Source of the DNA: Saprospira sp. CCB-QB6
GTDB taxonomy: Bacteria > Bacteroidota > Bacteroidia > Chitinophagales > Saprospiraceae
Length of the DNA: 64,000 nucleotides
Assembly (NCBI RefSeq): GCF_028464065.1
Contig: NZ_CP116808.1
Span: 1,071,886-1,135,885 of the forward strand
Direction of reading: 5' to 3'
In this document: piece by piece, positions 5,296-61,268 of the stretch
Position numbering within the stretch: the first letter of the stretch is position 1
How the letters are laid out: every line of letters begins with the position of its first letter
The notes under the pieces: generated by a model
Databases searched by the model: none
What the model saw: only the letters and a program-made list of their open reading frames with translations
Told to the model about the DNA's origin: nothing
Position numbers and translations under genes: made by a program

Positions 5296-5460
5296 TTTTG
5301 GGGCCTCCGCTGCGGCTTCGCCTTGCGGCGCTACGTTCCGCAGCTCGCTGCTCGCTCGGCCCTGCGGCGGCTTTGCCGCCTGGGTCTGGCCTGACGGCCA
5401 CTGCTGCACATCGCTAGGCCAAGGCGGCTGCGCCGCCTAAACGCAACCCTTTGGTCCCGC
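5296..5460. repeat. Family A GC-rich repeat in reverse orientation.
   Basis: ggggcctccgctgcggcttcgccttgcggcgctacg...ggccctgcggcggctttgccgcc core. Confidence 0.8.
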
Positions 5461-11174: not shown

Positions 11175-11333
11175 AGAGGAGCGAAGCGACTGGCCCAGCG
11201 CTGCGGAGGGGTGGCCGTAGGCCAGACCGAGCCAGCAAGCTGGCGAAGGGCCGAGCGAATAGTGAGCCCCGCAGCATAGCGGCGGCCGCCCTAGCCGAAG
11301 GCTAGCCGGCCGCGGGCCCCAAGGCATAAAAAA
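11175..11333. repeat. Family A GC-rich repeat.
   Basis: Shares the gccagaccgagccagcaagctggcgaagggccgagcgaatag core with other loci. Confidence 0.8.
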
Positions 11334-21394: not shown

Positions 21395-21880
21395 TTGGGG
21401 CCCGCGGCCAAGCCAGGCAGAATGCCCGGCTTGGCCGCCGCTATGCTGCGCGGCTCGCTCATCGCTCGGCCCTTCGCTTTTTCGCTGCGCTCAAAAGCTC
21501 GGTCTGGCCTGCGGCCACCGCTGCGCAGCGCTGGGCCGCTCCACTTTTGTTTTCACTTAATTCTTTCTGCTTCGGCCTTTTGTCTGCCCCTTTTAAGCGG
21601 TAGGCCTCGCTTCGCTCGGCCTGCTTCAATATGTCCCCGCCCACCCACCCCTCTACAGGATTCCTTACGGAATCCCTCGGGCTGGCTGGCCACTTGCTAC
21701 AATTTTCCCCAGACCAATTAGGCGGCGAAGCCGCCTCTGGCCCCAAGGGCCAGAACGGCCTAGCGATGCGGCGGGGTGGCCCGAAGGGCCAGACCCAGGC
21801 GGCAAAGCCGCCGCAGGGCCGAGCAGAACTGCGAGCCCCAAAGCGTAGCGCCGCAAGGCGAAGCCGCAGCGGAGGCCCCT
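21395..21880. repeat. Two family A repeats in inverted arrangement (forward 21395-21720, reverse 21721-21880).
   Basis: ggggcccgcggcc...gctcggtctggcctgcggccaccgctgcgcagcgctgggcc, and then its reverse complement. Confidence 0.8.
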
Positions 21881-49700: not shown

Positions 49701-49832
49701 ATTTGGGGCCTCCGCTGCGGCTTCGCCTTGCGGCGCTACGTTCCGCAGCTCGCTATTCGCTCGGCCCTGCGCCGCCAAAGGCAGCTGGGTCTGGCCTGAC
49801 GGCCACTGCTGCACATCGCTAGGCCGCTCATC
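49701..49832. repeat. Family A GC-rich repeat.
   Basis: ggggcctccgctgcggcttcgccttgcggcgctacgttccgcagctcgctattcgctcggccc... Confidence 0.8.
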
Positions 49833-50514: not shown

Positions 50515-50635
50515 TCCATCCCAAGGGATTCCGTAAGGAATCCCGTAGAGGGGTGGGTGGGCGGGTTATATTGCGAATGAGGAGCGCAGCGACGAATACC
50601 GCTTTTTGGCCTCCTCAAGAGCAGGAAATTAGGCT
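50515..50635. repeat. Family A GC-rich repeat fragment.
   Basis: cccgtagaggggtgggtgggcggg...gagcgcagcgacgaataccgc, the same segment as at 13370-13420. Confidence 0.7.
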
Positions 50636-51810
50636 AATTTTTGGACGGCAGTACTTTCATCCCCATAGTTTTGGCCAGGAGCTACGGTGAGTAGATTAAC
50701 GCCAGGTTTTTTGCCAGGGGCAAAGCTACCCAACTCCTCTTCAAAGCCCAGGGCTTCGGCACCATTTAGCGTGGCCCATTGCAAGAGCGTCTCAAAAGGG
50801 ACATAAGATTGGTAGCGGCGGATAGTCTTGATTTCGTCTAGGATAGAAAGGGCCCAATTAGAGGTGAGGCTATCGGTACCTAGGCAAACTTTGGCGCCTT
50901 TTTTCAAAAACGCTTGATAATTGGGGAGGCGATTTTCGATATAGAGATTGGCATTGGGGCAACTGGCCCAATAGACTGCCTTGCCCCAGCTCTTGGCGAA
51001 AGCAATATCTTGTTCAGAAGTGAGGGTGTTATGAACAAAGAGCGTTTTTTGTTCTGGGTCCATTTGCGAGAGGGCGTAATGGATGGCTGTTCTTCCGCTG
51101 GGTTGGAACTGGTCCAAAGAGAAGCCAAATTGGCCATAAAAATCGACAAAGCCGCCTGTTCCCTTGAGGAAGAGTTCTTGTTCTGGAGGCGTCTCTTGGT
51201 TATGAATGCTTACCGTATGGGCTTCTCCTTGATTGGCGGCATTGATGCGTTCGAACAATTGGGGAGAAACGGAATAAGGTGCGTGTGGCACCATGACTTT
51301 TCTGCTGCCTTCCGCTAGGGGAAGTGCGTCATAGACGGCCTTGTATTTTTCAAATTCGGTTTCGGCATTGGCGGCTTGTAGGAAGTCGAAACATTCTACA
51401 AAGCTATAATAGCGCAGGCGGCCTTTGGCCTTTTGGGCAAAGGTATCGGGAACATTAGTAATATCGCCTACGGCCACAATACCATTAGCGATCATTTGGT
51501 CCTCGGCCCAAGCGATAGCATCGGCAATAATTTCTTCGGGGGCATTGCGTCTAGAAACCACCTGTTTAATAAAGTCGATTAGGCCAGTGCCTGTTTCCAC
51601 TTTTCCGAGCATATGAGAAAGCTCTAGGTGGCAGTGTGCATTGATAAAGCCGGGGACCAAAATCCCCTTATGGATTTCGATTTCTTCTTGGGGGTAATCT
51701 GTACGTTGGCCTATTTCTAGGATGCGGCCCTCTTCATCAAGGACCAAAACGCCCTCTTTGATGGGGGCATCGCTAATGGGATAGATATAATCGGCGCTTA
51801 TTTTTCTCAT
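50629..51810 (-). CDS. Amidohydrolase family protein (deaminase/chlorohydrolase-like subgroup).
   Basis: [15 protein letters not shown] metal-ligand motif. Start trimmed to the internal ATG ([11 protein letters not shown]) because the first 79 codons of the ORF-track model lie inside a GC-rich repeat. Confidence 0.7.
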
Positions 51811-51860
51811 GGTATATGTCTTTAATTTAGGGGCCAAAAATAGAAAAAACTGTTGATTTA

Positions 51861-52042
51861 TCTTTAGAAATCTCTGAGACAGGCGGCGAAGCCGCCGCAT
51901 AGGAGCGCAGCGACTGGCTGAGGGATGCGCAGCAGTGGCGCAGAGCGCCAGACCCAGCCGCCTAAGGCGGCGCAGGGCCGAGCGAACAGCGAGCTGCGAG
52001 ACAGCCCGACCCGCCCACAGGGCGGGGCAGCCCCAAAATAGC
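51861..52042. repeat. Family A repeat ending GGGGCAGCCCCAAAA.
   Basis: Located inside a minus-strand operon between mvaD and the amidohydrolase gene. Confidence 0.8.
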
Positions 52043-52083
52043 GGCATAAAAAAAGCCTCCTAGAGGAAGCTTTTAGTTGGTGG

Positions 52084-53134: not shown

Positions 53135-54637
53135 TTATTTTGATGTTGATTCTGGGGCCTCTATAAAGCTTTGGGGCTCTAGAAAACCAAATTGATAATA
53201 TCTGAAATAGAGAGATTGCAGGCCGATAAACAGGCGACCATCTTGAAGAGGGTAGCTCAATTCGGGGCAGAGCAATTCGTCCTTGAATTCGTAAGATAGT
53301 AACTGTTTTTCTTTTAGCTGTCCTTGGGCATCAATTTGGGCCAGATAGGCCCCTGACTCTCGGCCGTAGAGGCCTCTATTGAAGAGCAAATAGATCTTTC
53401 CAGCTTTCTCCCAAAGATAGGGACGTAAAAAGGTAGCCTTAGACTTAGGAAAAGAGTTGTGTTTGAGAATACTTTGTTCCCAAAGTAACTCTCCAGCTTC
53501 AGAGAAGCAGAGCACAAAAATATTATGGCTTTTGAAGTTGTGGATGCCGTAGGGTCGTTGTTCGGCCAGTAGGATAAGGCGGCCATCGGCCAGTTGGCGG
53601 AAGCTAATACAGTTATAATTGCGTAATTCTGTTTTTTCTTTGATTTTGCTAGCTTTTCGGTGGAGCAACTGACCTTTTAAAGCCTTAGAAAAGGCCTGTT
53701 TCTTTTTGGCCAAAACCTGGCTGCGTTCCGCATTGATTTTGATGAGAAAATAGCCGCCTTGTTTATAGTATTTCTTTTGAGAGTAAAAGCCCGTCCAGTA
53801 AATATTTCCTTCTGCATCAAAGAGAAGGTCCATTTCATTGTAGAAAAAATCGCCCAATTTGGGACTAAAGCGGACAAATTCTTGAGGTTTTTGGCCTACA
53901 AAAAAGACTACGGGATCTGCGGTCACTTTTTTAAGCTGATAAGAGCGTTTTTCTCGAAACTGATCACTGAGAATAGCCACCACTCCTTCGTTGCTGATTT
54001 TAAGTTTTTGAATGGCGATCACTCTTTTTCCACTTTGGTTGGGAGAAAGATCCAGTTTGCGTTCCCAAAGCAGATTTAAATCCATATCCAATACTCTAAG
54101 GCGAATGCTATTGGTTAGTCCTCGGATATCTTCAATGTCGCCTTCTTCTTCATAGTCATAGAGCAATAATTTACTGCCATCAGGAGAAAGAACAAAATTT
54201 CCCCGATAGAGACGCTCTTTCATATCAAAGGGAGGAATTAGGGTAATGCTATCTGGAGTCAATTGAAAACTATCGGGTACAATCTCCTTAGCATAAAGAC
54301 TCACCTCCTCATAGCGTTTGAGTACTTTATTATCTATATAATAAGAATAGAGTAAGTAGTTTTTGCCATGAATGTGCATAGCGCCTCCATATTTTCGCTT
54401 TTTATCGCTCGATATATAACGCCCTTTTAACTTGAGCTGACCATCGTAAATTTCGGTTTCGGCCTTATCGAATTGCTTATTAAAACGCAAGATTTGAAAG
54501 CGATCTTCCTCATATTCTAAGAGCGCATAGGTTTTATAACCGCCTAGTCGCTCTTGGCGATCGCCCAAAAACAGACCTTGTGCACCCAAAAATAAAGGGA
54601 AAAAACTGATCAATAATAGAAGTATAATTTTATGCAT
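53135..54637 (-). CDS. Hypothetical secreted protein.
   Basis: Signal peptide. 500 aa. 7-nt gap to mvaD. Confidence 0.5.
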   Translation of the reverse strand: MHKIILLLLISFFPLFLGAQGLFLGDRQERLGGYKTYALLEYEEDRFQILRFNKQFDKAETEIYDGQLKLKGRYISSDKKRKYGGAMHIHGKNYLLYSYYIDNKVLKRYEEVSLYAKEIVPDSFQLTPDSITLIPPFDMKERLYRGNFVLSPDGSKLLLYDYEEEGDIEDIRGLTNSIRLRVLDMDLNLLWERKLDLSPNQSGKRVIAIQKLKISNEGVVAILSDQFREKRSYQLKKVTADPVVFFVGQKPQEFVRFSPKLGDFFYNEMDLLFDAEGNIYWTGFYSQKKYYKQGGYFLIKINAERSQVLAKKKQAFSKALKGQLLHRKASKIKEKTELRNYNCISFRQLADGRLILLAEQRPYGIHNFKSHNIFVLCFSEAGELLWEQSILKHNSFPKSKATFLRPYLWEKAGKIYLLFNRGLYGRESGAYLAQIDAQGQLKEKQLLSYEFKDELLCPELSYPLQDGRLFIGLQSLYFRYYQFGFLEPQSFIEAPESTSK

Positions 54638-54785: not shown

Positions 54786-55091
54786 ATGATCTCATTAATT
54801 TTACTCCTAATTATTCTACGCTATTACTGGAGATTAGCAAAAAAAATAGACCAAAACCCTTATTTATGGGCATTTTTAGCTTTTTCTATTTATGCTATTC
54901 TAGCTTCTGGCCTCATGTTTCTATTTGTCTATTTACTAGAAGTAGACCTAAATGTCAGCACTAAATCAGAAACGAGTATTAAGCTGATCGCTTCTTTGCT
55001 CGCTTTAATCTGGACTTACTTGATGGCCCCTCTTCTACTAAAAAAGAAAGTATCAACTACAAAAGACGACATCTTAGATGCTGGCCTTTAA
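54786..55091 (+). CDS. Small membrane protein, paralog 1 of 5, with C-terminal DDILDAGL.
   Basis: 101 aa with three TM helices. Carries an N-P-x-x-W motif after TM1. Confidence 0.55.
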   Translation: MISLILLLIILRYYWRLAKKIDQNPYLWAFLAFSIYAILASGLMFLFVYLLEVDLNVSTKSETSIKLIASLLALIWTYLMAPLLLKKKVSTTKDDILDAGL

Positions 55092-55100
55092 ATTATCATT

Positions 55101-55424
55101 ATGATCATACTCACTATTATCCTTGCGGGCGCCCTAGCCATTGGCAAATGGTATTGGGATAGCGCCGCCGAGCAATCCCTGCCCAAACTCAAATGGCTCC
55201 TCATTGGTATGGGCCTATTTATTGGCAGCTATATCTTAATTGGAATAGTTGTCTCCCTAGTTTTTGAGTTCGTTTTTGGCGATTTGGCCATTGGTATACA
55301 TGAAATTGGCAAAATTCTTATTACCGCCTCTTTTGCTATTAGTGTCTGCAAATGGGGCAACAAACGCTGGCTAGAAAATTATAGCCCTCCCCAAAAATCA
55401 GATATCTTAGACGCGGATATCTAA
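55101..55424 (+). CDS. Small membrane protein, paralog 2 of 5, with C-terminal SDILDADI.
   Basis: 107 aa with three TM helices. 9-nt gap from paralog 1. Confidence 0.55.
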   Translation: MIILTIILAGALAIGKWYWDSAAEQSLPKLKWLLIGMGLFIGSYILIGIVVSLVFEFVFGDLAIGIHEIGKILITASFAISVCKWGNKRWLENYSPPQKSDILDADI

Positions 55425-55435
55425 ACCATTTTTCT

Positions 55436-55747
55436 ATGCAGTTGACTATTTACTTACTCCTGTTCTTTTTTTTTCTGGCCTTAGTCCTTTACGGACATTA
55501 CCGCCTCAAAGCTCAAGCTGCTAGACTAAATCCAGAAGTATGGGGCCTAGCTGGCCCCATTCTTTTCTTTGGGCTTAGCCATTATCTCAGCCGGCTCACT
55601 ATTGCCCTTAGCGAGAGCATCAGTAATGAAAATTTATTTCTGGCCCTCAGTCTGGCAGGCAGCCTCATTAGCTTTGCAGCCATTTTCTTTATGGCCCCTT
55701 ACCTAATTTCTACGGTCCAAACAACAGCAGAACATGAACGCGATTAG
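55436..55747 (+). CDS. Small membrane protein, paralog 3 of 5, without the C-terminal motif.
   Basis: 103 aa. Carries the NPEVWG motif. Confidence 0.55.
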   Translation: MQLTIYLLLFFFFLALVLYGHYRLKAQAARLNPEVWGLAGPILFFGLSHYLSRLTIALSESISNENLFLALSLAGSLISFAAIFFMAPYLISTVQTTAEHERD

Positions 55748-56084
55748 CCCCCATCTCCTCACTTATATCCTCAGCCTGCTCAGCCTATTTTATTATGCTT
55801 CTCTTGCCCGTAAACACAGCAAGAATACCTTGCTATGGGCGGCTTTTGGCTTTCTTTTTCAGACGGGCCTCTCTATCCTTTTCATCCTATTCAGTAAGGT
55901 ATTTTTTGGCCTATTCAAAATCCTTTCTTGGCCCATCAATGATTATTGGGCGATTGGCCTACTCCTTCTCCCCCTAATCGCCTGCGTCCTTAGCCTTAAG
56001 CTAACCCCTTCTTTTGTTGCTCCCCAAGCAAAAAGACCCGCTCCTTCCTCCTCCAATTCAGATATTCTAGATGCGGATATTTAG
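55734..56084 (+). CDS. Small membrane protein, paralog 4 of 5, with C-terminal SDILDADI.
   Basis: 116 aa. Overlaps paralog 3 by 14 nt. Confidence 0.55.
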   Translation: MNAISPHLLTYILSLLSLFYYASLARKHSKNTLLWAAFGFLFQTGLSILFILFSKVFFGLFKILSWPINDYWAIGLLLLPLIACVLSLKLTPSFVAPQAKRPAPSSSNSDILDADI

Positions 56085-56087
56085 GGG

Positions 56088-56262
56088 CCCGCGGCCGCCC
56101 TTTATAGGGGGCAGCCGCCGCTATGCTGCGCAGCTCGCTGTTCGCTCGGCCCTGCGCCGCCTTAGGCGGCTGGGTCTGGCGCTCTGCGCCACTGCTGCGC
56201 AGCGCTGGGCCATTTGGCCCAGCGGGCCAAGGGGGCTTCGCCCCCTACATCCCTAAACCTAT
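56088..56262. repeat. Family A repeat inserted between paralogs 4 and 5.
   Basis: ggggcccgcggccgccc...gctcgctgttcgctcggccctgcgccgcc...ctgcgcagcgctgggcc. Confidence 0.8.
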
Positions 56263-56276
56263 CATAAAACACGCCC

Positions 56277-56660
56277 ATGACAACCTACTACATCTATCAT
56301 AGTACTCTTTTTCTTACGCTTGGCCTCAACTTTTATCTCTACAGAAAGAAAGCCATTCGCCACAATAAAAATCCACTAACTTGGGGCCTTATTGGTCTTC
56401 CTATCTACTACTTCTGCGAAGAGCTCTTTGTTCTGCTAGCTGATCTACTATATCGCACGATTAGATTAGGCTACTTCTTTTACCTAGAGCAGTTTTCAAT
56501 AGAGGGGACCGTAGAGGAAGCAGAACTATTTGGATCCATTTTACTCTATTTTTGCCTAGCCCTTAGCTTCCTTTCCGCCTTATGGCTAAGTTTGCGCATA
56601 GGAGAATTCCTTATCCGCCCTAGTAAAAATCAGCCTAATGCCGACAATCAACAGCCCTAG
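56277..56660 (+). CDS. Small membrane protein, paralog 5 of 5, without the C-terminal motif.
   Basis: 127 aa. Carries the NKNPLTWG motif. Confidence 0.5.
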   Translation: MTTYYIYHSTLFLTLGLNFYLYRKKAIRHNKNPLTWGLIGLPIYYFCEELFVLLADLLYRTIRLGYFFYLEQFSIEGTVEEAELFGSILLYFCLALSFLSALWLSLRIGEFLIRPSKNQPNADNQQP

Positions 56661-57795
56661 GCCATCTGCCGCTATCGTGTTGGTCCTTGCGCTTTTTGGC
56701 CTAAGTTTGGGCCTTTTTTGGTTTCTGCAATATCAAACCGATACCAATAGCTACATCCAAGCAGTAGAAATTATTTTGGGCCAAAAAGATATTGGCCTAG
56801 ATAGCTCGCACCGCCTCGCCAAATTTTACCCCTTCTACCCTATTGCCCTTTGGGCCAAATTAGGCTTGCCCATTTATTGGGGAATCCTGGGGCAGCAATG
56901 GCTCTGCTATTTTCTTTCGGCCTTGGCCCTCTATAAAATTGCAAAATTACTCTATCCCCAGCAAGCCTGGGCCCCTATCCTACTACTTAGCACTAGCCTG
57001 ATGGCCCCTCCCTACGCTATTTTCTCTACCGTCTGCATGACTGATGGCAGCGGCTGGGCCATGCAGCTTTGGGCCAGCTATTGGGCGTTGAGGCTAATCC
57101 AAAAAGCAAGACCTAATTATAGCACCGCCTTTTGGCTGGGCTGTTTTATGGGAGTCGGTATTCTAGTCAAAGAATCTATCCTGATGGCGGGTTTACTTTG
57201 GGCCTTGCTCCTCCTCTTTAAAACCAATTTGCTCTGGACCCAAAAATTACGTCTCTACCTAGCTACTGGCAGCGGTTTTCTGCTGCTATTTCTCACTGGC
57301 TCCGCTTGGGCCGAATGGCAATTTGGAAAATCACTTTTTAGTTGGTGGCGCTTTGCGCATACCGACCCTATTGAATATACAATTCCAATCATTGGCTATT
57401 TCCAGCAATTGGCCAGAACCTTAGATCTCTTATTTTTCCCTTTCGCTTTTGTCCTACTCAGTTACTTTAAAAAACAATTTCAGTATTGGGAATGGGCCAT
57501 TTTAACTACCGTCGGCCTAGCTTATTTGCTTTTCCCTTTTGCTTGGCCCTACTATATGGACCGCATCCTGATGATGTGCAGCCTCCCTCTTCTATTCTTA
57601 TATCCTCGACTTTTGCAGTATTTCTCAGGACGAAGTAGTTTTGCCCTACTCTTTCTAGCAGGCAGCAGCAGCCTGTTTATCTGCTACCGCATTTATAAAT
57701 ATGCAGAAAGCGGTTGGTTGCTCTGGGGCTATCTTCTTTTTGCTGCACTCCTATCTATTTTGCTCTTTCCTAAGGTCCGTAACAAACTCCCATAA
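56638..57795 (+). CDS. Polytopic membrane protein, about 10 TM helices, possibly a GT-C-type glycosyltransferase.
   Basis: 385 aa. Overlaps paralog 5 by 23 nt. Family call is speculative. Confidence 0.45.
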   Translation: MPTINSPRPSAAIVLVLALFGLSLGLFWFLQYQTDTNSYIQAVEIILGQKDIGLDSSHRLAKFYPFYPIALWAKLGLPIYWGILGQQWLCYFLSALALYKIAKLLYPQQAWAPILLLSTSLMAPPYAIFSTVCMTDGSGWAMQLWASYWALRLIQKARPNYSTAFWLGCFMGVGILVKESILMAGLLWALLLLFKTNLLWTQKLRLYLATGSGFLLLFLTGSAWAEWQFGKSLFSWWRFAHTDPIEYTIPIIGYFQQLARTLDLLFFPFAFVLLSYFKKQFQYWEWAILTTVGLAYLLFPFAWPYYMDRILMMCSLPLLFLYPRLLQYFSGRSSFALLFLAGSSSLFICYRIYKYAESGWLLWGYLLFAALLSILLFPKVRNKLP

Positions 57796-58748
57796 GCAAA
57801 AGCCGACTTTAATTTTTGCTCCACTGGCCGTATCCGCATTTCTTCCATCGGAAAACGCTGTATATGCTGGCTCAATTGCATTTCTTCCTTAATCCCCGCC
57901 CCACCAAAACTAAGGTCCAAATTGGCCCGCTCAAAAAAGGCCAACTCTACTTCATGGTCTGTAAAGGGAAAAGCAAAGGCCCGAATAGGCTGCGGCAACC
58001 AAGCCGCCAACTGCTGCTGATTTTTCTCTGTCTGAACCAATTGCTCTTCTAAAGAGAGCTTTTTGTATAAAGGATGATTCCAACTATGCCCGCCTATGCT
58101 AAAGCCCATAGTTTGCAAGGCTTTCAGCTCTTCTAGCTTTAAATAAGGCTGTTGTTGGACCAAAAAATTATCTACTGAACAGCCCACACGCTCCGCCCAA
58201 ACCAAAAGCTCATCCTCCTGAGCATAGCCCGCAGAAAAAAGTAAGTCCGCATCTTTTTGGCCCAACTCTTTTCGCTCTTCCAAATGGCTATAAATCAGGG
58301 CCGCCAAATGCCTAAACATCAAACGCTTGTTATCGATAAAAGCCCCATTGATAAAAAAAGTAGCTGGAATCCCTAAGCGCAACAAAATAGGCGCAATGAT
58401 ATGATAACAACTACTCAAGCCATCATCAAAACTCAAATGAAAAAATGGCTTTCGAGCTGGGCGCCCCGCTTCAACCCAAGCCAGTACCTCCCCTAAATCA
58501 ATGGGCTCAAAATGAGCCAAAATCAACTTTAACTCCACCTCAAACTGCTGAGGCGAAATCAAGGGATAAAGGGGCGAAATATGTGGCTGCGGCTCCGCTT
58601 CTACCGCATGATAAAAGGGAAAAAACGCTTCTACCTTTGCTTTTTCTTGCCAAAAAGAAAGGGAAAAGGCCTGAGCCAATTGGTCCAGACCTTTTTTCAT
58701 ATTATTCTTCATCCAAGGACCTAAGCCTTGTCTTTGGGCATAGTACAT
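57729..58748 (-). CDS. Polysaccharide deacetylase (NodB homology domain).
   Basis: HLSFDDGLSSCYHII...GIPATFFING motifs. Confidence 0.75.
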   Translation of the reverse strand: MYYAQRQGLGPWMKNNMKKGLDQLAQAFSLSFWQEKAKVEAFFPFYHAVEAEPQPHISPLYPLISPQQFEVELKLILAHFEPIDLGEVLAWVEAGRPARKPFFHLSFDDGLSSCYHIIAPILLRLGIPATFFINGAFIDNKRLMFRHLAALIYSHLEERKELGQKDADLLFSAGYAQEDELLVWAERVGCSVDNFLVQQQPYLKLEELKALQTMGFSIGGHSWNHPLYKKLSLEEQLVQTEKNQQQLAAWLPQPIRAFAFPFTDHEVELAFFERANLDLSFGGAGIKEEMQLSQHIQRFPMEEMRIRPVEQKLKSAFAYGSLLRTLGKSKIDRSAAKRR

Positions 58749-59071
58749 TGGCCATTAAATATTGCTCCTTGTTCAATCTGCAATCGCTCACAATCTATAT
58801 CTCCCGTCAACTGAGCCGAAGCCTGCAAATACACCAACGACTTGGCCTTTACATTCCCCTTGCTCTCCCCTTCCGAAATGAGCTCCTTACAGTTAATTTG
58901 GCCCATCACCTTACTTTTGGGCGCCATTACCAAACGGCCACCACATCTTAGCTCGCCATGCAATTCCCCCTCCAATCGGATATTAGAATTGGTTTCCAAA
59001 CTCCCCTCGATAATCGTACCCTGCGCCAAAATACAAACCTCTTTGGCCGCAATTGCTTTCTTTTCTTCCAT
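58721..59071 (-). CDS. Bactofilin family cytoskeletal protein.
   Basis: 116 aa with a beta-helical repeat pattern (G.I.G.L...G.L.G...V.G.I) of the DUF583 type. Confidence 0.6.
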   Translation of the reverse strand: MEEKKAIAAKEVCILAQGTIIEGSLETNSNIRLEGELHGELRCGGRLVMAPKSKVMGQINCKELISEGESKGNVKAKSLVYLQASAQLTGDIDCERLQIEQGAIFNGQCTMPKDKA

Positions 59072-59139
59072 AAAATTGTTTCTAATTAGGCCTTCAAGAT
59101 AATAACTTCTACTTAATAGGCCAAGTTTTTTCTTTTTTT

Positions 59140-59292
59140 GGGGCTGCCCCGCCCTTCGGTCGGGTCGGGCTCTCCGCAGCTCGCAGGTCTGCTCGGCCCT
59201 GCGCGGGCTTTGCCCGCTGGGTCTGCCGCCTTCGGCGGCCCTGCTCCCATCCCTCAGCCTGCGGCCCTTCGGGCCTGCAAAACGCAGTTGGA
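59140..59292. repeat. Family A repeat starting TTGGGGCTGCCCC.
   Basis: Located within a minus-strand operon between djlA and bactofilin. Confidence 0.8.
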
Positions 59293-59293
59293 C

Positions 59294-60049
59294 CTATTTC
59301 AAGCCTCGCTTTTCACAGATCGTATCATAAGCCTCTTGCAAACGCTTAAACTTAGACTCCCCCACTTTCTGAAACGCTTCCCCCAAACTCGCCAAACTAT
59401 CTGGATGATATTTCTTGACCATCTTCCGATAAGCCGCCTTTAACTGAGCATCTGAAGCCGATGGCGGCAACTCTAAAATCTTATAATGACTATCCATCTC
59501 ATCATAAAACATCGCTTTGATTGAGACAAAGTCACTATGTGGCAAATCCAACTCTAAACTAATCCGCTTAATAGTATCTACCTCCACCTGATCGATACTA
59601 TAATCTGCATTGGCAATACCAAAAAGGAAATAAAGCATCTGCAGGCGGGTTTCATAATTGCTACTCAAATAAATTTGTCGACAAATTTTAGAGAGCTCCC
59701 AATCTTGCTCCAAAGCAGCACTAAGGATTCCCATATACTCCTGCAAGTTATCTTGCCCAAACTGCTCTACCAAAAACTTCTGAATATAACTCAACTCCAA
59801 ATCTTCTACCTCTCCATCGGACTTAACAACAGCAGCAGCCAAAATTAGGGAACTGAGGATAAAGTTCGTACTATCATTCGGTTGAGGTAATTGTTTCTTG
59901 CGTCTTTTTGGCGCCCCCCCTCCTTTTTGGAGAAACATATCTATAAAAAAGCCAATTCCAAGGCCCAATAAAATACCTATTGGAAAATAAAGCAATCCGC
60001 CTAACAGCAGCCCCAAAAGCTTCCCAATATGTTGTTTCAGTAAATTCAT
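59294..60049 (-). CDS. djlA: DjlA-like membrane co-chaperone (N-terminal TM helix, TerB-like middle domain, C-terminal J domain).
   Basis: C-terminal J domain (YKILELPPSASDAQLKAAYRKMVKKYHPD) with a Gly/Leu-rich N-terminal TM. Confidence 0.6.
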   Translation of the reverse strand: MNLLKQHIGKLLGLLLGGLLYFPIGILLGLGIGFFIDMFLQKGGGAPKRRKKQLPQPNDSTNFILSSLILAAAVVKSDGEVEDLELSYIQKFLVEQFGQDNLQEYMGILSAALEQDWELSKICRQIYLSSNYETRLQMLYFLFGIANADYSIDQVEVDTIKRISLELDLPHSDFVSIKAMFYDEMDSHYKILELPPSASDAQLKAAYRKMVKKYHPDSLASLGEAFQKVGESKFKRLQEAYDTICEKRGLK

Positions 60050-61127: not shown

Positions 61128-61268
61128 GGGGCGCAAATGGCCCAGCGCTGCGCAGCGGTGGCCGCAGGCCAGACCCAGCGGGCAAAGCCCGCGCAGGGCC
61201 GAGCAGACCTGCGAGCCGCGAAGCATAGCGGCGGCCAAGCTAGCCTTTGGCTAGCTGGCCGCGGGCCC
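61128..61268. repeat. Family A GC-rich repeat.
   Basis: gcgctgcgcagcggtggccgcaggccagacccagcgggcaaagcccgcgcagggccgagcagacc. Confidence 0.8.

What the first reader, a model, noticed from the sequence alone, without database searches (positions are those of the whole stretch)
54786..57795. Operon of five paralogous small membrane proteins with a conserved C-terminal SDILDADI motif, followed by a polytopic membrane protein.
Five tightly packed ORFs of 101-127 aa, each with three or four TM helices, have gaps of 9-11 nt or short overlaps. Three of the five end in an almost identical extreme C-terminal motif: DDILDAGL, SDILDADI and SDILDADI. Four of the five share an R/K-x5-N-P-x-x-W-G/A motif after the first TM. 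The array runs directly, with a 23-nt overlap, into a 385-aa protein with about 10 TM helices. Tandemly diversified small membrane proteins with a conserved terminus resemble immunity-protein arrays of polymorphic toxin or bacteriocin systems. They also resemble substrate families recognised at their C-termini by a dedicated protease or PDZ-type partner. A family A GC-rich repeat is inserted exactly between paralogs 4 and 5. I do not recognise this family.
Basis: seen in the sequence. Interest (0 to 1): 0.8.

Follow-up and report, generated by a model that had tools for sequence, protein, structure and literature searches.

The report
Uncatalogued small membrane protein array
Five neighbouring genes in a Saprospira genome encode related small three-helix membrane proteins from a Bacteroidota family that no database describes; most carry a conserved acidic tail motif that probably faces the cytoplasm, and their function is still unknown.

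Summary
Five tightly packed ORFs (101-127 aa) lie at 54786-56660, followed by a 385-aa polytopic protein that overlaps the last one by 23 nt.

The five are real genes (dN/dS 0.09-0.35). All are homologous to one family: profile-profile P values are 6e-18 to 1e-6, against 0.008 or more for reversed controls.

The family has no match in Pfam, NCBIfam, PADLOC, PHROGs or PDB. A profile search of 1.84 billion proteins found only 20 representatives. Those with a named source are Bacteroidota.

Distant members keep the three-helix plan, the loop-1 signature ([YF]-x3-A...K-N-x2-L-W-x3-G) and the tail motif D-[IL]-L-D-x-[DN]-[ILF]. Tandem pairs and a triple occur outside Saprospira.

Charge distribution predicts N-terminus out and C-terminus in, so the tail motif is cytoplasmic. 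In several homologues it is not the extreme C-terminus. This argues against recognition by a periplasmic PDZ or tail-specific protease.

No toxin, bacteriocin, phage or defence gene lies nearby. The array has five genes in the same order in all six Saprospira lineages, so an immunity array is not supported. However, p1, p3/p4 and p5 exist as deeply diverged alleles that recombination has reshuffled.

The 385-aa protein is a borderline PMT_2 (GT-C-like) protein. It is deleted in two S. grandis genomes, so it is dispensable. The function of the array is unresolved.

The parts
54786..55091 (+). p1, 101 aa. Three-TM family member with tail KDDILDAGL. It is the paralogue closest to the wider family.
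   Evidence: ORF. AF2 gives three helices plus a short tail helix. hhalign against the non-Saprospira profile gives P=6e-18 over the full length. There are two allele classes 61-64% nt identical. dN/dS is 0.24-0.29.
55101..55424 (+). p2, 107 aa. Three-TM member with tail QKSDILDADI. Loop 1 is the variant L-P-K-L-K-W.
   Evidence: hhalign P=1e-10 over the full length. It is 86-96% nt identical across lineages. In L006 the tail is replaced by a p5-like PSKNQNIPNADL.
55436..55747 (+). p3, 103 aa. Three-TM member with an N-P-x-x-W loop and no DILD tail (it ends TTAEHERD). Its last 14 nt overlap the p4 start.
   Evidence: hhalign P=2e-6. The L006 allele is only 63-66% nt identical to the others.
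55734..56084 (+). p4, 116 aa. Three-TM member with a Pro/Ser-rich linker and tail NSDILDADI.
   Evidence: hhalign P=5e-9. blastp p1-p4 gives E 0.002. The L006 allele is 64-65% nt identical to the others but keeps SDILDADL.
56085..56276 (.). GC-rich, strongly folding dispersed repeat between p4 and p5. It is present at this site in all lineages and forms the left edge of the p5 replacement cassette.
   Evidence: RNA fold -120.7 kcal/mol, z=-6.0. At least 20 related copies in the 64-kb window. Collinear in L001, L006 and L009. Identity between the window and L038 drops inside it.
56277..56660 (+). p5, 127 aa. Divergent member: the N-terminal TM1, loop 1 and TM2 are family-like, the middle carries an insertion, and the tail is PSKNQPNADNQQP (no DILD). 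It overlaps the start of the next gene by 23 nt.
   Evidence: hhalign P=1e-6 over the first 32 columns only. The window allele is 72-78% nt identical to all others, although the flanks are 94-100% identical to L038. It is split by an IS3-family element in S. grandis Lewin.
56638..57795 (+). 385-aa polytopic membrane protein, a borderline PMT_2 (GT-C-like glycosyltransferase) match. It is a facultative neighbour of the array.
   Evidence: Pfam PMT_2 E 9e-6, 26.4 bits against a cut-off of 26.1, covering profile positions 7-160 of 160. The only homologues found are from Saprospira. It is present in the window, L006, L038 and L039, and cleanly deleted (window 56670-57747) in L001 and L009. dN/dS is 0.09. 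The AF2 model is unusable, pLDDT 45.

Best explanation
The five ORFs are ancient tandem paralogues of an uncatalogued family of small inner-membrane proteins. All family members with a named source are Bacteroidota. Each protein has three TM helices and is predicted to lie with its N-terminus outside and its C-terminus inside the cell. A conserved cytoplasmic turn joins TM1 and TM2 ([YF]-x3-A-x4-K-N-x2-L-W-[AG]-x2-G-x3-Y-Y). After TM3 comes a basic juxtamembrane patch, a flexible linker, and in most members the short acidic-hydrophobic motif [DE]-[IL]-L-D-x-[DN]-[ILF]. Elsewhere the family is usually a single gene in unrelated housekeeping contexts. In Saprospira it has expanded to a fixed five-gene co-oriented array. 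p1, p2 and p4 carry the tail; p3 and p5 do not. Inferred mechanism, not shown: the proteins act as membrane anchors or scaffolds, possibly hetero-oligomeric in Saprospira. Their tethered tail would be a docking motif for a cytoplasmic partner. This design is comparable to the C-terminal NWETF pentapeptide of chemoreceptors, the SSB C-terminal tip or the FtsZ C-terminal peptide. The conserved cytoplasmic face (loop 1 plus tail) would be the functional surface. The membrane and periplasmic middle part is free to diverge. The GT-C-like gene is a translationally overlapped but dispensable neighbour.
For: The genes are real and under purifying selection: dN/dS 0.09-0.35, with 1:1 orthologues in six lineages. 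Homology of all five to one family: hhalign P from 6e-18 to 1e-6, against 0.008 or more for reversed controls. The profile search of 1.84e9 representatives found 20 hits with E<1e-3, including 14 non-Saprospira proteins of 96-216 aa, all but one (P0024, a 216-aa fusion) at most 133 aa, with the same plan and tail motif. A further 15 metagenome loci were found. Named sources are Saprospira, Chryseobacterium and Splendidivirga. Topology: loop 1 +74/-18, loop 2 +22/-55, membrane-proximal K/R in the tail. The AF2 model of p1 has pLDDT 80.5, with three helices and a low-confidence short helix at DILD. The peptide is the selected unit: the p2 and p4 tails are identical in amino acids with 4 synonymous differences. 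Between allele classes only 46-54% identical in protein, loop 1 and the tail stay conserved while the middle diverges. No conserved neighbour appears across about 20 unrelated loci. The glycosyltransferase is absent from two genomes whose arrays are otherwise intact.
Against: No partner for the tail has been identified, and nothing here shows binding. p3 and p5 lack the motif, and p2 in L006 has lost it, so the tail is not essential to every member. Topology rests only on the positive-inside rule and hydrophobicity. The family is rare (20 representatives with E<1e-3 in 1.84e9), so generalisation rests on few sequences. The fast, allele-class evolution of p1, p3/p4 and p5 is not what a plain housekeeping scaffold would be expected to show.
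Confidence: 0.45

Rival explanations
1. The array is a set of immunity-like or exclusion proteins. They would protect the inner membrane against membrane-acting toxins or phage proteins, and conflict would drive their diversification.
For: They are small polytopic membrane proteins in tandem paralogous arrays, and tandem duplication has recurred in unrelated lineages (L013, L019, L023/L024). Array genes evolve faster than their neighbours (dN 0.21-0.46 between allele classes against 0.04-0.09; omega 0.2-0.35 against 0.03-0.12). There are discrete, deeply diverged allele classes, and the grouping of lineages differs from gene to gene. A roughly 500-bp p5 cassette differs (50-70% identity) between the window and L038, which are otherwise 92-100% identical there. 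Divergence is concentrated in the membrane and periplasmic half.
Against: No toxin, bacteriocin precursor, secretion-system, phage or integrase gene lies next to the array in six Saprospira loci. Distant relatives sit among housekeeping genes. Array number and order are invariant. There are no PADLOC or PHROG hits. No relatives were found in phage or viral collections. Omega is well below 1. Recombination mosaicism also affects flanking genes: the upstream 500-aa gene is 85% identical between the window and L038 while the deacetylase is 99% identical.
Confidence: 0.15
2. The small proteins are accessory or flippase-like subunits of an envelope glycan modification pathway. They would work with the GT-C-like protein and the adjacent polysaccharide deacetylase, by analogy with ArnE/ArnF plus ArnT plus ArnD, or with GtrA.
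For: p5 overlaps the PMT_2-like gene by 23 nt, which suggests translational coupling. A Polysacc_deac_1 gene lies immediately downstream on the opposite strand. The sizes (101-127 aa) resemble those of ArnE/F and GtrA; this comparison rests on my own knowledge of those families.
Against: The glycosyltransferase is deleted in S. grandis Lewin and WH, while all five small-protein reading frames are intact in WH. Lewin's p5 is broken only by an IS element. None of about 20 distant loci has a GT-C neighbour. No EamA, SMR or GtrA hit appears at E<=1 for any of 33 members. The proteins have three TM helices rather than four. The deacetylase is convergent, so it is not in the same operon.
Confidence: 0.12
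3. They are holin-like or other small pore-forming membrane proteins. This would match the class I holin architecture: three TM helices, N-terminus out, C-terminus in, charged C-tail.
For: The predicted topology and size match class I holins (the holin architecture is from my own knowledge). There are weak sub-threshold hits to holin models: Phage_holin_3_6 in 2 of 33 members with best E 0.013, and PHROG holin models at E 0.18-0.26.
Against: All hits are far below threshold and typical of generic TM similarity. No endolysin, spanin or prophage genes lie nearby. No viral relatives were found. The genes are stably chromosomal and under purifying selection in all lineages. The distal tail is acidic, unlike the basic tails typical of holins.
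Confidence: 0.05
4. The C-terminal motif is a recognition tag for a C-terminal processing protease or PDZ protein, or a degron for a cytoplasmic AAA+ protease. The array would then be a family of regulated proteolysis substrates.
For: The motif ends in a hydrophobic residue at the extreme C-terminus in p1, p2 and p4 and in several homologues. The tail is predicted to be flexible (pLDDT 43-52).
Against: The predicted cytoplasmic location excludes periplasmic Tsp, Ctp or DegP-type PDZ proteases. In P0019, P0021, P0023, P0025, L026-L028, L033/L034 and the second gene of L019 the motif is followed by 1-30 more residues, so a free carboxylate is not conserved. No protease or PDZ gene is a neighbour in any locus. 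A cytoplasmic degron is not excluded.
Confidence: 0.08

Closest known systems
Immunity-gene arrays of polymorphic toxin or bacteriocin systems
   Same: Small, often membrane-embedded proteins occur as tandem diversified paralogues. There is allelic hyper-divergence and recombinational cassette exchange.
   Different: No cognate toxin, orphan toxin fragments, secretion genes or mobile-element context are present. The array number and order are invariant across six lineages. Single-copy relatives lie in housekeeping neighbourhoods. There is no hit in PADLOC.
ArnE/ArnF (SMR-like) and GtrA small flippase subunits next to GT-C glycosyltransferases
   Same: Membrane proteins of about 100-130 aa are encoded immediately upstream of, and overlapping, a PMT_2/ArnT-like polytopic protein, with a polysaccharide deacetylase gene nearby.
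   Different: There are three TM helices rather than four. No EamA, Multi_Drug_Res or GtrA similarity appears at E<=1. The GT-C gene is dispensable and is absent from all non-Saprospira loci.
Class I holins
   Same: The predicted topology is three TM helices with N-terminus out and C-terminus in, the size is about 100 aa, and there is a charged cytoplasmic tail.
   Different: There is no phage context, no endolysin, no significant PHROG or Pfam holin match, and an acidic rather than basic terminal motif.
Tethered C-terminal docking peptides (chemoreceptor NWETF pentapeptide, SSB C-terminal tip DDDIPF, FtsZ C-terminal peptide, CheZ C-terminal peptide)
   Same: The design principle is shared: a short conserved acidic or hydrophobic peptide at or near the C-terminus, held on a flexible linker. 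This analogy rests on my own knowledge and was not tested here.
   Different: There is no sequence homology. The carrier is a three-TM membrane protein, and no partner is known.

Membership tests
Polymorphic-toxin or bacteriocin immunity array | A cognate toxin or bacteriocin gene (or orphan toxin C-terminal fragments) lies adjacent to the immunity genes. | tested here: not met
   Neighbours in six Saprospira loci are mevalonate diphosphate decarboxylase, a 500-aa protein of unknown function, the PMT_2-like protein, a polysaccharide deacetylase, bactofilin and a DjlA-like protein. Distant loci show unrelated housekeeping genes.
Polymorphic-toxin or bacteriocin immunity array | Array content and size vary between strains. 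| tested here: inconclusive
   Number and order are fixed at five in six lineages. However, alleles fall into deeply diverged classes that are exchanged by recombination.
Known anti-phage defence systems (PADLOC) | A match to a defence-system protein model. | tested here: not met
   There were zero hits at E<=1 for p1-p5, the 385-aa protein and the upstream 500-aa protein.
Substrates of periplasmic C-terminal or PDZ proteases | The C-terminus lies in the periplasm. | tested here: not met
   The positive-inside rule over 22 members gives loop 1 +74/-18 (inside), loop 2 +22/-55 (outside) and K/R directly after TM3. This predicts a cytoplasmic C-terminus. It is a prediction only.
Substrates of periplasmic C-terminal or PDZ proteases | The motif must be the free extreme C-terminus. 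| tested here: not met
   The motif is followed by 1-30 residues in P0019, P0021, P0023, P0025, L026, L027, L028, L033/L034 and the second gene of L019.
ArnE/ArnF (EamA/SMR) or GtrA flippase subunits | Sequence membership in EamA, Multi_Drug_Res or GtrA_DPMS_TM, and four TM helices. | tested here: not met
   No such Pfam or NCBIfam hit at E<=1. The proteins have three helices.
ArnE/ArnF (EamA/SMR) or GtrA flippase subunits | Conserved co-occurrence with the glycosyltransferase. | tested here: not met
   The glycosyltransferase is deleted in L001 and L009 while the array is retained. No GT-C gene is present in any non-Saprospira locus.
Class I holins | Three TM helices with N-terminus out and C-terminus in, and a charged C-tail. 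| tested here: met
   The topology is a prediction.
Class I holins | A phage or lysis-cassette context, or a match to a holin model. | tested here: not met
   No PHROG hit better than E 0.18. No match in phage records or viral contigs. No endolysin neighbour.
GT-C glycosyltransferase, PMT_2 (for the 385-aa protein) | A Pfam PF13231 match above the gathering score. | tested here: met
   26.4 bits against a cut-off of 26.1, E 9e-6, profile positions 7-160 of 160. This is marginal. The orthologue P0056 carries a precomputed PF13231 annotation.
GT-C glycosyltransferase, PMT_2 (for the 385-aa protein) | A GT-C fold with an acidic catalytic motif in the first periplasmic loop. | tested here: inconclusive
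   The AF2 model has pLDDT 45 and cannot be used. There is no PDB sequence hit. D35-x3-Y39 after TM1 is conserved in three orthologues, but its role is untested.

The most novel reading that the evidence does not exclude
The family is a new class of Bacteroidota membrane adaptors whose cytoplasmic D-I-L-D-x-D-I tail recruits a conserved intracellular machine. In this reading the Saprospira five-gene array is a recombining, allele-swapping recognition or protection locus. Its variable membrane and periplasmic halves would sense or block diverse external agents (toxins, phage proteins or kin signals). Its conserved cytoplasmic face would signal inward.
Probability: 0.15. Interest if true: 0.8.

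Novelty: categorically new. Interest (0 to 1): 0.5.

Why it matters
This would define a protein family absent from Pfam, NCBIfam, PADLOC, PHROGs and PDB. The family carries a clear, testable short linear motif on a predicted cytoplasmic tail. Conserved tethered peptide motifs are easy handles for finding partners, for example by peptide pull-down or co-folding. That could expose an unknown membrane-associated pathway in Bacteroidota.

The Saprospira locus also offers a compact natural experiment. It holds five ancient paralogues, three with the motif and two without. It shows tail swapping between paralogues, discrete allele cassettes exchanged between species-level lineages, and a glycosyltransferase that is present in some lineages and absent in others.

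The novelty is at the level of an uncharacterised protein family. Nothing here shows a new biological mechanism, and the family may turn out to have a mundane structural role.

Tried and rejected
1. Pfam, NCBIfam, PADLOC and PHROGs scans of the five paralogues, of 10 distant relatives and of 33 family members found no family at or near threshold. The most recurrent match was Peptidase_U4 in 5 of 33 members, best E 0.003, which is generic TM similarity.
3. A PDB sequence search with the family profile gave nothing meaningful.
4. The word-index homologue search with family alignments added almost nothing beyond Saprospira. For the 385-aa protein it returned only two Saprospira orthologues.
5. 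The structure prediction of the 385-aa protein failed (pLDDT 45), so no fold search was run on it.
The narrower A5 found one genome locus (Splendidivirga) and 15 metagenome loci.
7. Phage record and viral contig searches were empty.
8. A literature search for the motif string returned only irrelevant matches.
9. I considered an RNA-level explanation for the tail. GATATC...GATATC forms an inverted repeat in p2. I rejected it because p4 and p1 use different codons and distant homologues conserve the peptide rather than the DNA.
10. A motif scan of all window ORFs found the motif at a C-terminus only in the paralogues; the one other match is an internal chance match in the upstream 500-aa gene.
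11. 'Fragments of one degraded gene' is rejected by the dN/dS values and the 1:1 orthology.


Full report
**Source of the window.** The window comes from a Saprospira genome (Bacteroidota, Saprospiraceae). Paralogue 5 is 100% identical to a protein of Saprospira sp. CCB-QB6. The other paralogues have orthologues in S. grandis str. Lewin (CP002831) and S. grandis WH (CP110854).

**Observation.** The ORF listing confirms five co-oriented ORFs:
- p1, 54786-55091, 101 aa
- p2, 55101-55424, 107 aa
- p3, 55436-55747, 103 aa
- p4, 55734-56084, 116 aa
- p5, 56277-56660, 127 aa

A 385-aa polytopic ORF at 56638-57795 overlaps p5 by 23 nt. Spacing is 9 nt, 11 nt, a 14-nt overlap, then a 192-nt gap.

The 192-nt gap holds a GC-rich element. 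It folds with z = -6.0 and has at least 20 related copies in the window.

p1, p2 and p4 end in DDILDAGL, SDILDADI and SDILDADI. The p2 and p4 tails are identical in protein but differ at four synonymous sites and in the stop codon. Selection therefore acts on the peptide.

The AF2 model of p1 (pLDDT 80.5) shows three long helices and a short low-confidence helix on DILD. The proteins therefore have three TM helices, not four. N-P occurs in p1, p3 and p5 only. The columns invariant across paralogues and orthologues are Y14, A18 and W28.

**Are they real genes and true paralogues?** Each ORF has a 1:1 orthologue, in the same order, in six Saprospira lineages: the window, L001, L009, L005/L006, L038 and L039. 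Pairwise dN/dS is 0.09-0.35. The genes are therefore under purifying selection, though less constrained than their neighbours (0.03-0.12).

Pairwise blastp between paralogues is weak (p1-p4 E 0.002; p3-p5 E 0.2; p2 only through the tail). Orthogroup profiles compared with a profile of non-Saprospira relatives give P values of 6e-18 (p1), 1e-10 (p2), 2e-6 (p3) and 5e-9 (p4), all over the full length. p5 gives 1e-6 over the N-terminal third only. Reversed-sequence controls are all at 0.008 or above. All five thus belong to one family, and p5 is the most derived.

A full HMMER profile search of 1.84 billion representatives found only 20 proteins with E < 1e-3. Six are the Saprospira orthogroups. 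Fourteen are distant relatives of 96-216 aa, and all but one (P0024, a 216-aa fusion) are 133 aa or shorter. They share three features:
- an N-terminal TM helix starting at residue 1-3;
- the loop signature [YF]-x3-A-x4-K-N-x2-L-W-[AG]-x2-G-x3-Y-Y;
- in most cases, a tail motif.

Tail examples are SDLLDSNL, KILDADLMK, NLLDENI, ADILDDNFFAKD, DDILDEDFLV..., NLLDSDFR and SDILDDDII.

A metagenome scan added 15 more loci. Named sources are Saprospira, Chryseobacterium and Splendidivirga, and several metagenomic contigs carry T9SS-tagged neighbours. The family therefore appears to be confined to Bacteroidota.

In a 54-sequence alignment the Ala is invariant. The D-x-L-D core is present in 30-35 of the 41-44 sequences that have residues in those columns.

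**Tandem organisation elsewhere.** Two adjacent paralogues, both ending SDILDDDII, occur in L013. The same lineage has three in a row in L023/L024. Two occur in the MAG contig L019, ending NLLDENI and DLLDDDAW.... Most other loci have a single copy.

Neighbours differ in every locus, and no conserved partner emerges:
- a LytS-type kinase and LytTR regulator in L016
- RecQ in L031
- TruB and UppP in L025
- a diadenylate cyclase in L018 (Pfam DAC) and apparently also in L034 (read from the ORF sequence)
- a MarR/GNAT-like gene and a sulfatase in Splendidivirga
- T9SS cargo in L020

Apart from the two cases with Pfam calls (L016 and L018), these neighbour identities are my own reading of raw ORF translations, not family-search results.

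**Topology.** Over 22 members, loop 1 carries +74/-18 charges and loop 2 carries +22/-55. The N-terminus is essentially absent. TM3 is followed at once by K/R before the acidic motif. The positive-inside rule therefore predicts the N-terminus outside and the C-terminus in the cytoplasm.

In many relatives the motif is followed by further residues. Together, these two points argue against recognition of a free C-terminus by a periplasmic PDZ or tail-specific protease.

**The 385-aa protein.** It matches Pfam PMT_2 just above the gathering score (26.4 against 26.1 bits, E 9e-6, whole profile). That makes it probably a small GT-C-type glycosyltransferase. Only Saprospira homologues were found, there is no PDB sequence hit, and the AF2 model is unusable.

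The gene is present in the window, L006, L038 and L039. It is cleanly absent from S. grandis Lewin and WH, where window positions 56670-57747 have no counterpart. The first roughly 11 codons, which overlap p5, remain, so this is a deletion. The array therefore does not depend on it. In Lewin, p5 is also split by an IS3-family element.

**Evolutionary pattern.** Flanking genes are 79-88% nt identical between the four species-level lineages. Within the array:
- p1 falls into two classes only 61-64% identical.
- p3 and p4 of L006 are 63-66% identical to all the others. Those others are 91-99% identical to each other, which is closer than their flanks (dS 0.13-0.20 against 0.5-1.2).
- The window's p5 is 72-78% identical to all the others.

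The window and L038 are 98-100% identical through p3 and p4 (p2 is 93%) and 92-100% for the first ~200 nt after the break, 56611-56850 (GT is 94% overall, with windows of 78-88% further in). Between them, 56240-56610 is only 50-70% identical. This is a discrete cassette replacement, bounded on the left by the GC-rich repeat and on the right by the conserved end of p5.

Between allele classes, loop 1 and the tail stay conserved while TM2, loop 2 and TM3 diverge. In L006 the p2 tail has been replaced by a p5-like tail: PSKNQNIPNADL compared with PSKNQSNADNQQP.

Recombination mosaicism is not unique to the array. Between the window and L038, the upstream 500-aa gene is 85% identical while the deacetylase is 99% identical. 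The pattern is therefore suggestive of diversifying or balancing selection, not proof of it.

**Interpretation.** What is shown:
- a real, ancient, fixed five-gene array of paralogues from an uncatalogued family whose named members are all Bacteroidota;
- a conserved cytoplasm-facing turn;
- a tethered acidic-hydrophobic tail motif.

What is inferred:
- The conserved cytoplasmic face, meaning loop 1 plus tail, is the functional surface.
- The tail is a docking peptide for a cytoplasmic partner.

The design is comparable to the chemoreceptor NWETF pentapeptide, the SSB C-terminal tip or the FtsZ C-terminal peptide. These analogies rest on my own knowledge and were not tested here.

Four rival explanations were considered:
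- **Immunity or exclusion array.** Allele-class evolution and tandem duplication favour it. The absence of any toxin, phage or defence context and the invariant array size count against it.
- **Accessory or flippase-like partner of the glycosyltransferase.** The gene overlap favours it. Loss of the glycosyltransferase, the lack of a glycosyltransferase elsewhere, and the lack of EamA or GtrA similarity count against it.
- **Holin-like protein.** Only the predicted topology fits.
- **Proteolysis tag.** The periplasmic version is disfavoured; a cytoplasmic degron is not excluded.

**Verdict.** Interest is moderate. The motif and the array make a clean experimental target, but no function or mechanism is established.

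Noticed in passing
window 56085-56276; related copies at e.g. 1794-1883, 5326-5421, 11191-11291, 21434-21537, 21719-21853, 49731-49825, 51915-51998, 59172-59275, 61129-61235: A dispersed GC-rich, strongly self-folding intergenic repeat family (REP- or MITE-like) has at least 20 copies in 64 kb. The copy between p4 and p5 is conserved at that site in all Saprospira lineages. It marks the left breakpoint of the p5 allele replacement.
   Followed up: partly
L001 11384-12553 (S. grandis str. Lewin): An IS3-family element (rve plus HTH_Tnp_1 ORFs) is inserted inside p5, splitting it into 67-aa and 70-aa pieces.
   Followed up: partly
window 56670-57747 compared with L001 and L009: The PMT_2-like gene is cleanly deleted in two S. 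grandis genomes. L039, whose flanks are S. grandis-like (94-97% identity), still has it. This is a recent presence/absence polymorphism of a putative envelope glycosyltransferase.
   Followed up: partly
L006 3665-3991 (p2 orthologue): The SDILDADI tail of p2 is replaced by PSKNQNIPNADL, which resembles the p5 tail PSKNQSNADNQQP. This suggests tail exchange between paralogues.
   Followed up: no
window 53135-54637 (-): A divergently transcribed 500-aa protein has a signal-peptide-like N-terminus and no Pfam, NCBIfam or PADLOC match. It is conserved next to the array in all Saprospira loci. An internal segment (about 53584-53808) is unusually divergent between lineages, at 65-69% identity.
   Followed up: no
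window 57729-57795: The 3' ends of the PMT_2-like gene (+) and the polysaccharide deacetylase gene (-) overlap convergently by 67 nt. Where the glycosyltransferase is deleted, the deacetylase is 341 aa instead of 339.
   Followed up: no
window 50629-52047 (-): The longest ORF for the amidohydrolase gene has an N-terminal extension of about 79 aa that reads through a copy of the GC-rich repeat ([26 protein letters not shown]). The orthologues are 393 aa, so this is probably an ORF-calling artefact.
   Followed up: no
L016 4528-6812; P0024: One distant family member (P0023) sits 34 nt upstream of a LytS-type histidine kinase and a LytTR response regulator. Another (P0024, 216 aa) is fused to an extra N-terminal membrane domain.
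   Followed up: no
window 58721-60049 (-): Bactofilin and a DjlA-like (TerB plus DnaJ) membrane co-chaperone gene lie just downstream of the deacetylase. They are conserved in all Saprospira loci, and no link to the array was shown.
   Followed up: no
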